DNA of 64,000 nt. It comes from Escherichia coli. Its GTDB lineage: Bacteria > Pseudomonadota > Gammaproteobacteria > Enterobacterales > Enterobacteriaceae. The notes beneath the pieces are model-generated. The model did not search any database. It saw nothing but the letters and a program-made list of their open reading frames with translations, and was not told the DNA's origin. Below, in pieces: positions 30,197-35,573 of this stretch (the first letter of the stretch is position 1; each line of letters starts with the position of its first letter). The position numbers were made by a program, and so were the translations under genes. Where the stretch lies: assembly GCF_003790525.1 (NCBI RefSeq), contig NZ_CP033635.1; one strand, 5' to 3'.

Positions 30197-30958
30197 TCAA
30201 ATAGCTAAAGCACTCATCGTGTTGTCCGTGTTCATACCGGTGTGCCTTTGACAACGGTACTCCTTCGAAACTCTCTTCGGACTGTTGCCGAAATGTTTGC
30301 GGAACGCATAAATAAAATAAGATGTACTCGCATAACCACATTGTTCGGCAATTTTATTGACTGAACCTTCTACGCGTATCAAATTTTTTGCGTGCTGCAT
30401 TCTGGCATCTAAAAGAATCTGTGAGAATGTCGTTTGCTCTTGCTTTAGTTTTTTCTTCAACAGGCTTTCACTGATGTACAGGCAGTCACAAATATCTTTC
30501 AGCTTCCATGGGTGCGCCAGCTTCATGTTGACAATATTTCTCACTTTCCCGGAAACGGATAGCACACCGTTAGTTAATAGTGTAATGAAACCTTTGCATG
30601 CGGCAAAAATAGACAGGCAAGAAAAAAGCAAAAGTTCTGAAAAGTTATGATGATTGCGTTCTTCCGAGTTGAGATAAGCAATCATTTCATTAAGCAATCC
30701 CGTCGGTACATTTGAAGCACGTAAAAACTTCGCAGGAACAGGCACCGTCACTGTCTGGATGTTAGTGCATTGTAGATATTTTTTAATGGTGTTTTCATTA
30801 AATCCGATTTCTTTGAAATGCCGCTCATAAGGTTCAAAATGCGTACGAACAGCGTTATCTACCATCAGGATCTCGCCGTCAGAGAAGGCGTAATCTTTAT
30901 CTAAAATGTTAGCGTTGAAGGCATGATGAATAAATATAACAGAACAAACGAGCGACAT
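30197..30958 (-). CDS. ydeO: AraC-family acid-resistance regulator YdeO
   Basis: 253-aa ORF MSLVCSVIFIHHAFNANILDKDYAFSDGEILMVD...; C-terminal AraC-type HTH (AEQCGYASTSYFIYAFRKHFGNSPK). Confidence 0.93.
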   Translation of the reverse strand: MSLVCSVIFIHHAFNANILDKDYAFSDGEILMVDNAVRTHFEPYERHFKEIGFNENTIKKYLQCTNIQTVTVPVPAKFLRASNVPTGLLNEMIAYLNSEERNHHNFSELLLFSCLSIFAACKGFITLLTNGVLSVSGKVRNIVNMKLAHPWKLKDICDCLYISESLLKKKLKQEQTTFSQILLDARMQHAKNLIRVEGSVNKIAEQCGYASTSYFIYAFRKHFGNSPKRVSKEYRCQRHTGMNTDNTMSALAI

Positions 30959-31032
30959 TTTATCTCCTTAAAACAATAAAGTTTTTATCGATACTTTTTT
31001 AACATTTCACATTTATAATTTGCTGTTTATTT

Positions 31033-31230
31033 TCAGTCTTGCAAACTATTGATAATGAAATGTGTAAGATCTCTTGCCATGCGACCCATTTCTGAAATGC
31101 CCTGCTGATCAATTGCCGAAAAAATGGCTATCAACGTAAGTGTCAGCAACAAGACAACCACAATTACAGACATGATTTCTTTATAGTTGTCTCTTTGCAT
31201 GATTTTGTTTTTCACTGTGGTCGCATGCAT
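31033..31230 (-). CDS. safA: Small membrane connector protein SafA (EvgS-to-PhoQ)
   Basis: 65-aa ORF MHATTVKNKIMQRDNYKEIMSVIVVVLLLTLTLIAIFSAI... with a single transmembrane segment; 74 bp upstream of ydeO (safA-ydeO operon arrangement). Confidence 0.88.
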   Translation of the reverse strand: MHATTVKNKIMQRDNYKEIMSVIVVVLLLTLTLIAIFSAIDQQGISEMGRMARDLTHFIINSLQD

Positions 31231-31341
31231 TTCAAATGTGTTTATTTAGCGGATAACGTTAAAAATCGTTAATCAGTATGATTAATATAACAGGCTGGAT
31301 AAAAGAGGAAATAGGACTGGCACTTCAGTACTGAGCGGAGT

Positions 31342-31359
31342 TTCTTACAACTGTAGGCA
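31342..31359. promoter_or_regulatory. EvgA-box-like 18-bp palindrome upstream of safA-ydeO
   Basis: TTCTTACA-AC-TGTAGGCA: left half matches the recalled EvgA consensus TTCPyTACA exactly, right half TGTAGG matches the inverted half for 6 bases; 112 bp upstream of the safA ATG. Confidence 0.55.
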
Positions 31360-31477
31360 GAGGTTTATATCTTATAGTGTGTAGTTTAATTTAATCCATG
31401 TGAGCAAATTGCGCGATAATAGTCAATGAGGAATTCTTCTGCTGTGCGGATGACAGCAGAAGAAATGAGGAGGCGAA

Positions 31478-33757
31478 TTAATTTGATGGCTCTAATTCAA
31501 CAGGAATACTTTTATAGCCAGGAATGCCACTTAATGGATCGTGGTTATCAAGTGTTAGCATGTGATTCGATTCTGGAAAATAGGTCACCAGTGAGCGGTC
31601 AGCCATAGGGTAAATGACCACTTTTAATCTATCCATGCGTCGTGAGCTACGTTTACCGTCTGGCGTGAGTGCAATAAGATTAACTCTTTCGCCGTTTTTT
31701 ACACGGCAAATTTTAGCTTGTTTAGCACTCATAAAGACCACATCTCGTTGACCGAATACACCTCGATAGCGATCATCCATACCATAAATCGTCGTGTTGT
31801 ACTGATCGTGGCTGCGTACTGTCGCCATGACCAGTTTACTGTTAAACGCTGAAGAGGGATCTTCTAACAGCCCTTTGCTGGTAATGAAATTAGCCTTACC
31901 TGACGGCGTCATCCAGCGCCTTTCAGCAGCTGCGTTTATCAGGTGAAAACCACCAGGATGACGGATGCGCTGGTTATAGTCGGCAAACTCTGGCAGCACA
32001 GCTTCAATGTCATTGCGAATGCGATCATAATCTTCCACCAGATACTCCCAGGCTACCACGCTCTGGGGTAGTGCTGCCTGCGCGATTCCCGCGACCACTG
32101 CACACTCTGATTTCAGCATTACACCGGCGGGTTTTAACACACCACGCGAGGCATGAATCATCGACATTGAATCTTCAACGGTTACCGCCTGCGCACCGCT
32201 TTTTTGCATGTCAATCTCGCTACGTCCCAGAACCGGCAGAATATAGCTATGCCGTGCGGTCAGCAGATGAGAGCGGTTAAGCTTAGTGGCTACGTGTACC
32301 GCCAAATCTAATTGCGTTAACGGTACAGCGCTCGCTTCCCGATCTGGCATTGCCAGCGCAAAGTTGCCCCCCATGCAGATCAATGCTCGAGCTTGCCCCG
32401 TACATATTGCTTGCATGCTGGCAATTGCAGCATGTCCAGGTGCATGAGGTGGGGTGAAGCCATAGCGCTCACCCAGGCGATCCAGAAACTCTGCAGACGG
32501 TTTCTCGGTGATACCGACGGTTCGGTCGCCCTGTACATTAGAGTGACCTCGTAGTGGGCAGATACCCGCACCAGGCTTGCCAATGTTACCTTTCATCAAC
32601 AGCAGATTGACCAGTTGCTGTACGTTCTGGGTACCATGTTCGTGCTGAGTGATCCCCATTCCGTAACAGATAATGGTTCGTTCGGCAGCGGCATATGCAT
32701 CAGCAAGTTCGGCGATTTGTGTCTGACTTAGTCCAGATATACGTTCGATATCTTTCCACTCGGAATTGAGCACGTCACGGCGTAGCTCGTCAAAGCCGAC
32801 GGTATGCGTTTGAATAAATTCATCATCCAGCAATGAGGGCCGACCTGCGGCGCTTGCAGCATCATCGCGCTCAATTAACAGGCGCATCATTCCCTTGAGC
32901 AACGCCATATCACCACCAATGCGCACGTTGTAGTAGGCACTGGCCAACTGAGTCTCAGAGTTCGTCAGCATTTCAAACGGGTTTTGCGGTGCGGTAAATC
33001 GCTCCAGGCCACGTTCCTGTAGAGGATTGATGGCGATCATTTTCGCTCCCCGTTTCACTAAAGCGCGCAACGAAGTCAACATGCGAGGGTGGTTTGTACC
33101 AGGGTTATGCCCAATGCAAATGACTAAATCGCATTTCTCAAAGTCTTCCAGCAACACGGTCCCTTTACCTACACCGATACTCGCTGCCAAACCCACACTG
33201 GTCGGTTCATGGCACATGTTGGAGCAGTCGGGGAAGTTATTGCTCCCGTATTCACGGGCAAAAAGCTGATAAAGAAAGGCAGCTTCATTGGAAGTGCGGC
33301 CCGAAGTATAGAATTCAACCTGATTGGGATCACTATAGCTTTGAAGGCGTTCGCCAATTTCGTCGAAAGCTTGTTGCCAGCTTAATGGCTTGTAACAGTC
33401 GCTGACGGCATCATATTTCAAAGGCTGGGTGAGACGCCCCGCAGCCTCAAGCTCGTGATCTCCCCAGGTAAGTAATGATTGAACCGTATTCTCAGCAAAG
33501 AAAGAGGCATTTACCTGCTTATCCGTGACTTCCCAGGCGATTGCTTTTGCGCCGTTTTCACAAATGTCGAATGACGCACTGTGCTTAGGATCTGGCCATG
33601 CACAACCCGGACAGTCAAAGCCCTCTGGCTTATTCATGTCAAACATGGCAATAACATCCTGGCGTATATCCATCTGCTTACGTACTGCATTCGCTACGGA
33701 TTTAACAGCACCCCAACCACCGGCAGCCCCCTGGTAGGATTCAATTTTTTTCTTCAT
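31478..33757 (-). CDS. ydeP: Molybdopterin oxidoreductase (formate-dehydrogenase-like) YdeP, acid resistance
   Basis: 759-aa ORF; N-terminal Cys cluster (CPGCAWPDP ... C), molybdopterin oxidoreductase family. Confidence 0.9.
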
Positions 33758-34005
33758 CTACTTATCCTGTGTCGAAATGAATTATTAGGATTTGAAATAG
33801 CGATGATGCACAGTATATACAAAGGGATTATCGTCAATATGGATATATAAGAGTAGGGGACTACTCTCTTTCTATTTTTAATCTATTATCGTTAAATAAT
33901 AGAATGGTATAAATACGATAAGTTAAGCATCATCTCTCATAGTGTTTAAATTAACATGTTTTTCAATATAAAAAATAAGACTCTGGCGTTAATTGTGCGC
34001 GGATT

Positions 34006-34023
34006 TTCTTACAGGTGTAGGAT
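34006..34023. promoter_or_regulatory. EvgA-box-like 18-bp palindrome upstream of ydeP
   Basis: TTCTTACA-GG-TGTAGGAT, the same half-site arrangement as the safA copy; about 250 bp upstream of the ydeP ATG. Confidence 0.5.
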
Positions 34024-34095
34024 AATAGCCTTCACAAAATAATTATCCGCGCAATTTTCGCGAATGGAGCGCATAGACTAAGGTCAAAATCACAA

Positions 34096-35010
34096 TTATT
34101 CATAGATAAAAGTGACACCAATGACTGACTGGACGGTTCCGGCTGCAACCTTGTTTCCTGTTTGTCCATAGGTTGCGCTTAAACCCAGAGGTACTTTGCT
34201 TTTATTTACTGTCCCCAGGGAGACGTTTTCTCCCGTAGCCAGTATTTTTCCATTACGCATCAGAGAGACACCCACTCCCGATGCTTTTGTTGCATCTGGT
34301 GCTGTGTTAGCAAACACTTGTCTGGCACTGTCAGTGGTAGCACCCGAAAGATAAAATGAGAGCTTTTGTTCACTTGAGCAATATACGCCAAGGGGGATTT
34401 CTGCGCTTCCAGGAAAGTCCGGGAGATTCACATTGACATTACGACTATCAACGGTGCAGCCGCCTGTTGGCATAACAACACTGTTATTTGAAATAATATT
34501 CCACGTAAAATTACGCGGATTTCCGCTTCCTAACGTGGCAATTTTATACATATGAATACGGGCAATAACTTCCCCGGCTTTTATGACAACTCCACCGGCC
34601 GCACCGACTGGGGTAATATAGAGTTTTAACGGTAATGGCATCGGTGTCTTATCACCAATATCTAATACATTAGTATTTGTCGTCAACGGGAAGGGGTAGG
34701 TCACATTATTCCAGTACAGCGATCCTTTATATGACTGTAGAGAGCCTGCGAAAGCTGATCCTTGTACCAGGTTTATATGATCAGTGTCGTACCAGCCGCC
34801 GTAATCATTCCAGCAACTTATATGCTGAGACAAGTCTACAACCAGATTCTGGCCCGGTTGTATTACAGGGTCGAGATTAACATAAACAGAGGTTGTACCT
34901 GCTCCAATACTTGACCCGCCATCGACATTACAACTGAAGGCAAAAACTTTGCCTGCCATTAATAGAAGATAAATACCGAACAGAAGCTTCATACTTATTG
35001 TTTTACCCAT
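34096..35010 (-). CDS. ydeQ: FimH-like two-domain fimbrial tip adhesin (F9/Fml-type), YdeQ
   Basis: 304-aa ORF with signal peptide; strongly FimH-like by recalled motifs ([24 protein letters not shown] ... NLVVDLS ... [13 protein letters not shown] ... C-terminal VIGVTFIYE donor-strand-complemented pilin domain). Confidence 0.9.
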
Positions 35011-35069: not shown

Positions 35070-35573
35070 TTATTGCCAGGTGTAGATCACATTGATTAGC
35101 GCCTCGATCGTTCCCTGGCTTGCGTTTCCATTCACCGTGATAGCTCTTGCCTTAAGTGGAAACTGTGCATTACGAGTGATCTCATCAACAATAACCGTTT
35201 TGCTATCACCATTTTTTAACGTCGCATCCTGGTCATCCCTTAGCTCTATCTGAATATTTTCGGCAGTACCTTCATTTTTGTAATAACCCGTATTGTCAGT
35301 TGAACCTGTCACGATTGCCGTCACTGCACTTGTTTCAACCGGACAATCGGTTAATGACAAAGTAATATTGTGCCAGCCTGATGCAGAACCAGGTTGTTGC
35401 AGATTGCGCGTATAAAGATCCCCGAGATTAACGTTAGCTTCTTTGGTTTGAATAGTGCAGGGTTTAGCGACTACCCGACCAATAACAGTGATAGTGACAT
35501 CGGCGGCCTGGAGAGTTGCTGTGAATAACGCGCAAAACGTAGCTAACAGGAACCTCTTGTGAAGTCTTTTCAT
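35070..35573 (-). CDS. ydeR: Fimbrial minor subunit (FimG-like), YdeR
   Basis: 167-aa ORF with signal peptide and pilin-like C-terminus; position between adhesin and ydeS as in type 1 pili. Confidence 0.85.
   Translation of the reverse strand: MKRLHKRFLLATFCALFTATLQAADVTITVIGRVVAKPCTIQTKEANVNLGDLYTRNLQQPGSASGWHNITLSLTDCPVETSAVTAIVTGSTDNTGYYKNEGTAENIQIELRDDQDATLKNGDSKTVIVDEITRNAQFPLKARAITVNGNASQGTIEALINVIYTWQ

What the first reader, a model, noticed from the sequence alone, without database searches (positions are those of the whole stretch)
31342..31359. EvgA-box-like palindrome upstream of safA-ydeO
TTCTTACAACTGTAGGCA carries a perfect TTCPyTACA half-site and an inverted TGTAGG half, 112 bp upstream of safA. 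A near-identical site lies upstream of ydeP at 34006..34023. Together they give a sequence-level explanation for co-regulation of the safA-ydeO and ydeP acid-resistance genes by the EvgS/EvgA two-component system.
Basis: partly seen in the sequence, partly recalled or inferred. Interest (0 to 1): 0.3.

Follow-up and report, generated by a model that had tools for sequence, protein, structure and literature searches.

The report
Known EvgA boxes at safA, ydeP
The two 18-base palindromes are real, conserved docking sites for the acid-sensing regulator EvgA in front of the E. coli acid-resistance genes safA-ydeO and ydeP, and this regulatory link is already established, so the finding is correct but ordinary.

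Summary
The window is E. coli chromosome. ydeO, safA and ydeP all lie on the minus strand.

They are the only matches in 64 kb to TTCYTACA-N2-TGTARGAA with at most one mismatch; no shuffle gave any. A weight matrix built only from boxes at other EvgA targets (emrK/evgA, frc, yfdX, yegR) ranks them first and second (22.3 and 21.2 bits; next best 9.6).

Across nine divergent strains, 1 of 28 core positions varies against 192 of 549 other intergenic positions. The 2-bp spacer and the outer bases vary freely.

Published work states that EvgA binds the safA-ydeO promoter directly and that ydeP is the standard EvgA reporter.

I add three points. The perfect half-site is the promoter-proximal one. 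The box centre lies near -74.5 at ydeP, and by alignment probably at safA too. The two promoters match at 43 of 75 positions (57%) from the box to the transcription start, including an extended -10. Six EvgA promoters also share a second conserved element about 26-32 bp downstream of the box.

The parts
31342..31359 (-). EvgA box of the safA-ydeO promoter. In the gene direction it reads TGCCTACA-GT-TGTAAGAA.
   Evidence: Sequence. 1 mismatch to TTCYTACANNTGTARGAA, 0/100 shuffles. PWM score 21.2 bits, rank 2 of the window. 0 of 14 core positions variable in 9 strains.
34006..34023 (-). EvgA box of the ydeP promoter. In the gene direction it reads ATCCTACA-CC-TGTAAGAA.
   Evidence: Sequence. 1 mismatch. 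PWM score 22.3 bits, rank 1. 1 of 14 core positions variable: TACA to TACG in L011, the same variant as the K-12 emrK/evgA box.
31284..31292 (-). Predicted extended -10 of the safA promoter, TGtTATATT. The TG starts 50 nt from the proximal box edge.
   Evidence: Read. TG and TATATT are invariant in 9 strains while the N base varies (T to C in L011). No -35 match. Position inferred; the TSS is not mapped here.
33948..33956 (-). Predicted extended -10 of the ydeP promoter, TGtTAATTT. It has the same 50-nt spacing from the box as at safA.
   Evidence: It lies 7 nt upstream of position 33940. That position corresponds to the 5' end of the 178-nt K-12 ydeP leader used in PMC11210196.
33940..33940 (-). 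Probable ydeP transcription start. It puts the box centre at -74.5.
   Evidence: K-12 leader given as -178 relative to the ATG (PMC11210196), mapped through alignment A2. That this 5' end is the TSS is an inference.
31310..31316 (-). Second conserved element TCCTATT, 26-32 nt downstream of the safA box (about -40 to -34).
   Evidence: Block GTCCTATTTC is invariant in 9 strains with variable flanks. Same offset as TCTTATT at ydeP, and TCY..T is shared by six EvgA promoters.
33974..33980 (-). Second conserved element TCTTATT, 26-32 nt downstream of the ydeP box (about -40 to -34).
   Evidence: Block CAGAGTCTTATTTT is invariant in 9 strains. Six-promoter window information content 10.8 bits vs null 6.4 +/- 0.66, 0/5000.
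31033..31230 (-). safA (65 aa, connector that activates PhoQ), first gene of the safA-ydeO operon.
   Evidence: ORF. RefSeq annotation. Literature.
30197..30958 (-). ydeO (253 aa, AraC-family acid-stress regulator), second gene of the operon.
31478..33757 (-). ydeP (759 aa, acid-resistance putative oxidoreductase).
31434..31464 (-). Stable hairpin just after the ydeP stop codon, upstream of the safA box. It has no T-run. It may be a 3' stabiliser or a partial barrier between the ydeP and safA-ydeO transcription units.
   Evidence: dG -17.5 kcal/mol, z -5.1, 0/200 shuffles. Stem invariant in all strains; only the loop differs in L011. Not called as a terminator.

Best explanation
The two 18-bp inverted repeats are the primary binding sites for a dimer of phosphorylated EvgA. 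EvgA is the NarL/FixJ-type response regulator of the EvgS/EvgA mild-acid-sensing two-component system. Each helix-turn-helix reads one TTCYTACA half-site; the halves are separated by 2 unspecified bases. Each site sits upstream of its own sigma-70 promoter, one for safA-ydeO and one for ydeP. These promoters have an extended -10 (TGnTATATT, TGnTAATTT) and no recognisable -35, so they depend on the activator. The box centre is about 74.5 bp upstream of the ydeP transcription start, and by alignment at the same distance at safA. When EvgS is activated at about pH 5.5, EvgA~P occupies both boxes and switches on three products together: YdeP (acid resistance), SafA (which activates PhoQ/PhoP) and YdeO (which activates gadE). 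Basis of each step. Shown here: the sites exist, are non-random, match boxes at the other regulon members, are conserved in their core, and share a fixed spacing to a conserved -10. Taken from the literature: EvgA binds the safA-ydeO promoter, and both promoters are induced through EvgA. Inferred: the exact TSS, the dimer-per-palindrome stoichiometry, and the way RNA polymerase is contacted from -74.5. That contact could be the alpha C-terminal domain, or further low-affinity EvgA protomers reaching the conserved element at about -40, as described for the homologue BvgA.
For: Sequence and coordinates. Non-randomness: 2 hits at <=1 mismatch, 0/100 shuffles. Independent PWM from the emrK/evgA, frc, yfdX and yegR boxes ranks the two sites 1st and 2nd (22.3 and 21.2 bits; next best 9.6). 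The same motif lies upstream of all other known direct targets tested in K-12. Phylogenetic footprint: 1/28 core positions variable vs 192/549 elsewhere in the two intergenic regions, Fisher p = 1.3e-4; 5/8 spacer and outer positions variable. Shared geometry: the TG of the extended -10 starts exactly 50 nt from the box at both promoters, and 43/75 positions are identical downstream of the box against 19.9 +/- 3.7 expected. A -10-like hexamer starts at offset 52-54 in all six EvgA promoters examined. Literature: EvgA binds the safA-ydeO promoter directly (PMC9496106 citing Itou 2009); an EvgA binding site is found in all directly regulated genes (PMC4283999); safA is expressed from an EvgS/EvgA-regulated promoter (bioRxiv 10.64898/2026.05.06.723403); ydeP is activated by EvgA and has a 178-nt leader (PMC11210196).
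Against: No binding or mutational experiment can be run here. The primary papers that defined the motif and footprinted these promoters (Masuda & Church 2002; Itou et al. 2009) are not in the held library, so the match between these exact 18 bp and the footprint rests on secondary citation and on my memory of the consensus. The safA TSS is predicted only. At ydeP the consensus scan also found an alternative sigma-70-like pair, TTAACG-16-TATATT at 33992-33965. That pair would place the box centre nearer -57. It is less conserved (TATATT becomes TTTATT in L011) and does not fit the 178-nt leader. No EvgA box was found upstream of gadE, so the motif does not explain every reported EvgA effect.
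Confidence: 0.93

Rival explanations
1. The boxes are recognised mainly by another LuxR/GerE-type regulator of the acid or envelope stress networks, such as RcsB, GadE or NarL/NarP. EvgA dependence of the genes would then arise elsewhere.
For: The half-site contains TAAGAA / TCTTA, which resembles half of the RcsB box as I recall it (from memory, not tested). The 7-2-7-like geometry is common to the NarL family.
Against: The full 18-bp motif recurs upstream of exactly the operons known as direct EvgA targets (emrK/evgA, frc, yfdX, yegR, ydeP, safA) and nowhere else in the 64-kb window. The half-site orientation (TCTTA...TAAGA) is opposite to the RcsB box as I recall it. The literature reports direct EvgA binding at safA-ydeO.
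Confidence: 0.03
2. ydeP, safA and ydeO form a single operon driven from the ydeP box. The safA-proximal box would then be redundant or vestigial.
For: One paper refers to a 'ydeP-safA-ydeO operon' (PMC11052181). All three genes are co-oriented. The structure after ydeP is a hairpin without a T-run, not a canonical terminator, so read-through is plausible.
Against: The safA box and its whole promoter module (extended -10 and -40 element) are as conserved as those of ydeP, including in the divergent L011. Other papers describe safA-ydeO as an operon with its own EvgA-bound promoter and use a PsafA reporter.
Confidence: 0.05
3. The palindromes are chance matches in AT-rich intergenic DNA and have no function.
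For: The single half-site occurs at the chance rate in the window.
Against: About 0.005 sites are expected at <=1 mismatch and 0/100 shuffles gave any. Both sites lie upstream of known EvgA targets. The core is invariant while the spacer varies. There is a 12-bit gap to the next PWM hit.
Confidence: 0.01

Closest known systems
EvgA binding site (18-bp inverted repeat TTCPyTACA-N2-TGTAPuGAA) of the E. coli EvgS/EvgA regulon. As I recall, it was defined by Masuda & Church 2002 and footprinted at ydeP and b1500 (safA) by Itou, Eguchi & Utsumi 2009.
   Same: Same organism, same genes, same motif. These are the strain's copies of the described sites. K-12 carries TGCCTACAGCTGTAAGAA at safA and AGCCTACACCTGTAAGAA at ydeP.
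   Different: Only strain-level substitutions, in the spacer and the outer distal bases. At ydeP the window strain is closer to consensus than K-12 (ATCC vs AGCC).
EvgA boxes at emrK/evgA, frc (yfdW), yfdX and yegR in E. coli K-12.
   Same: Same 18-bp palindrome (0-3 mismatches), intergenic, upstream of EvgA-activated genes. A -10-like hexamer lies 52-54 nt from the box, and CA at offset 9-10 and TC at offset 26-27 are shared.
   Different: Flanking promoter sequence is otherwise unrelated (23-31 of 75 identical), whereas safA and ydeP share 43-45 of 75. yfdX has two tandem boxes.
BvgA-activated promoters of Bordetella (fhaB, ptx). BvgA is the closest characterised homologue of EvgA (from memory).
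   Same: A NarL-family activator binds an inverted repeat of TTTCCTA-like heptads far upstream of the start site. Further lower-affinity dimers extend toward -35. That would fit the second conserved element seen here at about -40.
   Different: Different organism and regulon. The multi-dimer model is not shown for EvgA and the secondary element here is only a sequence observation.
NarL '7-2-7' sites (from memory).
   Same: Two inverted heptamers separated by 2 bp, bound by a dimer of GerE/LuxR-type HTH domains.
   Different: Different half-site sequence (TACYYMT) and regulon.

Membership tests
EvgA box (EvgA regulon operator) | 18-bp inverted repeat matching TTCYTACA-N2-TGTARGAA | tested here: met
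   One mismatch at each site. They are the only two such sites in 64 kb, with 0/100 shuffles.
EvgA box (EvgA regulon operator) | Scores as a site under a matrix built from independent regulon members | tested here: met
   A PWM from the emrK/evgA, frc, yfdX (two boxes) and yegR sites gives 22.3 and 21.2 bits, ranks 1 and 2, next best 9.6. The training sites themselves score 18.3-25.2.
EvgA box (EvgA regulon operator) | Located in the non-coding region upstream of an EvgA-activated transcription unit | tested here: met
   Both sites are intergenic: 112 bp before safA and 249 bp before ydeP. EvgA dependence of both units comes from the literature.
EvgA box (EvgA regulon operator) | Core bases conserved relative to flanking non-coding DNA | tested here: met
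   1/28 core vs 192/549 other positions variable, p = 1.3e-4. Spacer and outer bases 5/8 variable.
EvgA box (EvgA regulon operator) | Physical binding by phosphorylated EvgA to these bases | not testable with these tools
EvgA box (EvgA regulon operator) | Loss of EvgA-dependent induction when the box is mutated | not testable with these tools
   Requires reporter assays.
EvgA box (EvgA regulon operator) | Co-occurrence with the evgAS genes in the same taxon | tested here: inconclusive
   The box occurs only at E. coli-type ydeP loci (L010, L011, L049). It is absent upstream of the ydeP homologues of Edwardsiella, Yersinia rohdei and the other hits. This agrees with the statement that EvgS/EvgA and SafA are confined to E. 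coli and Shigella. I did not check for evgAS in those genomes.

The most novel reading that the evidence does not exclude
EvgA-dependent promoters may be a rigid module rather than a box plus any promoter. The module has four parts: the 18-bp palindrome centred near -74.5; an invariant CA 9-10 nt after it; a conserved TCYnnT(T) element 26-32 nt after it (about -40 to -34), which lies 42 bp (four helical turns) from the like-oriented distal half-site and resembles its TCYTA core; and a -10 hexamer 52-54 nt after the box. The safA and ydeP promoters are paralogous copies of this module, 57-60% identical from the box to the start site. This would imply further EvgA protomers or RNA polymerase contacts between the palindrome and -35, as for BvgA. 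I do not know whether this has been described for EvgA.
Probability: 0.3. Interest if true: 0.35.

Novelty: already known. Interest (0 to 1): 0.12.

Why it matters
The sites connect mild-acid sensing by EvgS to three outputs at once: YdeP, the SafA link to PhoQ/PhoP, and the YdeO-GadE glutamate-dependent acid resistance cascade. That wiring is already part of the established model for E. coli K-12, so confirming it in another strain adds little. What this analysis does contribute:

- It shows that a reader without tools can recover a real operator from sequence alone.
- It shows which bases of the box are under selection across E. coli.
- It shows that the whole promoter, not only the box, is shared between safA and ydeP, with a fixed spacing and a second conserved element. 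Together these give a concrete, testable architecture for how EvgA activates transcription.

Tried and rejected
- **Primary papers.** I could not retrieve Masuda & Church 2002 (DOI and PMC151933), a guessed PMC id (PMC135377), Eguchi 2007 (PMC2141842) or Eguchi 2011 (PMC3067605). None is held.
- **Literature searches.** Full-text searches for 'TTCPyTACA', for 'EvgA' with '18-bp' and 'inverted repeat', and for 'EvgA box/consensus/binding motif' returned nothing useful beyond PMC4283999. The consensus itself therefore rests on my memory, plus my own test on other regulon promoters.
- **Sigma-70 scan.** The consensus scan found no promoter at safA. This is expected for a -35-less, activator-dependent promoter, and I located the extended -10 by conservation instead. 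At ydeP it found TTAACG-16-TATATT and TTTATA-17-GATAAT. I rejected both as the main promoter: they do not fit the 178-nt leader, are not conserved in L011, and have no counterpart at safA.
- **Rfam.** No RNA family was found in 30900-34200 at E <= 1.
- **Other species.** A search for ydeP loci returned none labelled as another Escherichia species (the only divergent copy, L011, is itself labelled E. coli), so no deeper footprint was possible. Edwardsiella and Yersinia rohdei homologues have no box.
- **gadE.** No EvgA box upstream of gadE in K-12 at up to 3 mismatches.
- **Secondary full sites.** I tried to read the CA and TCY elements as parts of full secondary palindromes 20-22 bp downstream of the box. 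The half-site matches were only 4-5 of 8 and the partner halves were poor, so I do not claim full secondary sites.

Full report
**Locus identity.** The window region 30900-34400 is 100% identical to E. coli SMS-3-5, and 5,311 of 5,426 complete E. coli genomes carry a match covering at least 80% of it. RefSeq annotates the genes there, all on the window's minus strand. They are ydeO (acid stress response regulator), safA (two-component system connector), ydeP (acid resistance putative oxidoreductase) and ydeQ. Window coordinates are ydeO 30197-30958, safA 31033-31230 and ydeP 31478-33757.

**The observation.** One search shows TTCTTACAACTGTAGGCA at 31342-31359 and TTCTTACAGGTGTAGGAT at 34006-34023, as reported. 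The first box is 112 bp from the safA ATG and the second is 249 bp from the ydeP ATG. The sites agree at 14 of 18 positions. They differ only in the 2-bp centre and the last two bases. Because the genes are on the minus strand, the boxes read TGCCTACA-GT-TGTAAGAA and ATCCTACA-CC-TGTAAGAA in the direction of transcription. The perfect half-site is therefore the promoter-proximal one.

**Is it more than chance?** The pattern TTCYTACANNTGTARGAA with at most one mismatch hits only these two places in 64 kb, and none of 100 dinucleotide-preserving shuffles gave a hit. Allowing three mismatches adds nothing. The half-site alone occurs at the chance rate, 4 found against 3.3 expected. The inverted pair is what is special.

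**Is it the EvgA motif?** I could not retrieve the papers that defined the consensus, so I tested it directly on K-12 DNA around other known EvgA targets.

- In the 20-kb emrY-emrK-evgA-evgS-yfdE-yfdV-oxc-frc-yfdX region the pattern hits four times against 0.39 expected. All four hits are intergenic: one between emrK and evgA, a perfect palindrome before frc, and two before yfdX.
- yegR has a 1-mismatch site 107 bp upstream of its start codon.
- A log-odds matrix built only from those five boxes, symmetrised and excluding ydeP and safA, was run over the whole window on both strands. The two reported sites rank first and second at 22.3 and 21.2 bits. The next best position scores 9.6 bits.

**Conservation.** I fetched the locus from seven further E. 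coli genomes spanning 90.7-97.2% identity in the safA upstream region: K-12, O157:H7, Nissle 1917, MS1050, KTa008, CRE287 and PM4-5. I added a more divergent copy, L011, found by a scan of species-representative genomes. Its YdeP is 96% identical, and alignments of these intergenic regions that include it average about 88% column identity.

- Of the 28 core positions (CCTACA and TGTAAGAA at two sites), one varies. That is TACA to TACG at ydeP in L011, the same variant that the K-12 emrK/evgA box carries.
- Of the 8 spacer and outermost distal positions, five vary.
- Of the remaining 549 intergenic positions, 192 vary (Fisher one-sided p = 1.3e-4).

This is the pattern expected of a protein-contacted palindrome with an uncontacted centre.

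**Taxonomic range.** ydeP homologues in Edwardsiella (84-85% amino-acid identity), Yersinia rohdei (67%) and more distant bacteria have no such box upstream. This fits the published statement that EvgS/EvgA and SafA are confined to E. coli and Shigella (PMC9496106).

**What the literature held here says.**

[quoted passage not shown] - A 2026 preprint uses a PsafA reporter and describes safA-ydeO as expressed from an EvgS/EvgA-regulated promoter that PhoP and YdeO feed back on.
- PMC11210196 states that EvgA activates ydeP transcription and uses a ydeP leader running from -178 relative to the start codon.
- PMC5573083 uses ydeP-lacZ as the standard EvgS activity reporter.

**Promoter anatomy and mechanism.** I mapped the 178-nt K-12 leader through alignment A2, where K-12 lacks 5 bp that the window has in the leader. 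The ydeP 5' end falls at window 33940. Seven bases upstream lies TGtTAATTT (33956-33948), an extended -10. There is no -35 match at the proper spacing.

At safA the conserved TGtTATATT (31292-31284) has the same form. In the divergent L011 the TG and the hexamer are kept at both promoters while the intervening base changes from T to C. In both promoters the TG begins exactly 50 nt after the proximal edge of the box.

When the two promoters are laid side by side anchored on the box, without gaps, 43 of the 75 positions downstream of the box are identical. Composition predicts 19.9 +/- 3.7, and 0 of 5,000 shuffles reached 43. In K-12 the figure is 45 of 75. Upstream of the box the similarity vanishes.

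The box centre is thus at about -74.5 at ydeP and, by alignment, at safA. The most likely mechanism is that an EvgA~P dimer on the palindrome activates a -35-less, extended -10 sigma-70 promoter from an upstream position. The TSS assignment, the stoichiometry and the contact with RNA polymerase are inferences.

The consensus scanner proposed an alternative pair at ydeP (TTAACG-16-TATATT). It fits neither the leader length, nor conservation in L011, nor the safA alignment, so I consider it less likely.

**A wider pattern, seen in passing.** I anchored six K-12 EvgA-activated promoters on their boxes: ydeP, safA, emrK, frc, the proximal yfdX box and yegR.

- Invariant columns appear at offsets 9-10 (CA), 26-27 (TC) and 31 (T).
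- The best 7-column window, offsets 26-32 (TCTTATT, TCCTATT, TCCTCTG, TCTGATT, TCTGATT, TCCTATT), carries 10.8 bits. The null of random circular shifts gives 6.4 +/- 0.66, and 0 of 5,000 trials reached 10.8. In that null, ydeP/safA and frc/yfdX were each shifted as one lineage.
- Each promoter has a -10-like hexamer starting at offset 52-54.
- At safA and ydeP this second element sits inside the longest invariant blocks outside the box (GTCCTATTTC and CAGAGTCTTATTTT).
- It lies at about -40 to -34. It is 42 bp from the like-oriented distal half-site and resembles its TCYTA core.

This suggests a further EvgA or polymerase contact, as described for the homologue BvgA (from memory), but it is only a sequence observation. 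I could not check whether Itou et al. 2009 already reported it.

**Rivals.** Chance is excluded. A different LuxR-type regulator is unlikely, because the full motif tracks the EvgA regulon specifically. A single ydeP-safA-ydeO operon, as worded in PMC11052181, remains partly possible. The structure after ydeP is a strong hairpin (31434-31464, -17.5 kcal/mol, z -5.1) without a T-run, so read-through may occur. Even so, the safA promoter module is as conserved as that of ydeP, which argues that it works in its own right.

**Verdict.** The feature is already known: these are the strain's copies of the described EvgA sites at safA (b1500) and ydeP. Interest is low. The only angle that may be new is the rigid, partly duplicated promoter architecture.

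Noticed in passing
window 31276-31359 vs 33940-34023 (minus strand): The safA and ydeP promoters are homologous well beyond the 18-bp box. 43/75 positions are identical downstream of the box in one ungapped register (expected 19.9 +/- 3.7). They share TCCGCnCA right after the box and have the same 50-nt spacing to a TGn extended -10. This suggests a duplicated promoter module.
   Followed up: yes
window 31310-31316 and 33974-33980; K-12 loci L002, L003, L060: Six EvgA-activated promoters share invariant CA at offset 9-10 and TC at offset 26-27 from the box, plus a -10-like hexamer at offset 52-54. The 26-32 window carries 10.8 bits vs 6.4 +/- 0.66 in the null. It may be a secondary EvgA or RNA polymerase contact near -40.
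   Followed up: partly
window 31434-31464 (minus strand): A perfect 12-bp stem hairpin (TTCTTCTGCTGT...ACAGCAGAAGAA) lies just after the ydeP stop codon: dG -17.5 kcal/mol, z -5.1, no T-run. In the divergent locus L011 the stem is kept but the loop is roughly its reverse complement, as if the palindrome had flipped.
   Followed up: partly
window 31257-31272: A direct repeat TTAACG-N4-TTAACG (gene strand, period 10) lies in the first ~20 nt of the predicted safA transcript. The repeat units are conserved while the spacer varies between strains. It is a candidate operator for the reported PhoP or YdeO repression of PsafA.
   Followed up: no
window 33758-33940, especially 33850-33867 and 33906-33910: ydeP has a long (~180 nt), well conserved 5' leader containing a hairpin (AGAGTAG-TCCC-CTACTCT). 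A 5-bp indel (ATACC) distinguishes the window, Nissle and CRE287 from K-12, O157, MS1050, KTa008 and PM4-5. No Rfam family matches.
   Followed up: no
loci L012-L015, L054 (Edwardsiella), L014 (Yersinia rohdei): The closest YdeP relatives outside E. coli are in Edwardsiella (84-85% amino-acid identity). No other Escherichia species representative was hit. This patchy distribution suggests horizontal transfer of ydeP. None of these loci carries an EvgA box.
   Followed up: partly
locus L010 (JARKOR010000108.1, 'Candidatus Nanosynbacter' MAG) and L049 (uncultured bacterium UMGS1713): A contig filed under a Nanosynbacter metagenome bin encodes a YdeP 100% identical in amino-acid sequence to the window's, with K-12-type EvgA boxes. 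This is almost certainly E. coli contamination of the bin.
   Followed up: no
window 35070-35573 vs SMS-3-5 (L001 7295-9010): SMS-3-5, otherwise identical over 30900-34400, has an IS3-family element interrupting ydeR. The window has an intact 167-aa ydeR, so the window is not from SMS-3-5 itself.
   Followed up: no
K-12 locus L061 (hdeD-gadE intergenic): No EvgA box at up to 3 mismatches upstream of gadE, although EvgA is reported to activate gadE. Any direct action there must use a much weaker or different site, or be indirect through YdeO.
   Followed up: partly
K-12 locus L002 17480-17500 and 18470-18490: The frc and yfdX promoters share CTCTCTGATT at the same offset (about 21-32) from their EvgA boxes. 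This suggests a second pair of related EvgA promoters, analogous to safA and ydeP.
   Followed up: no
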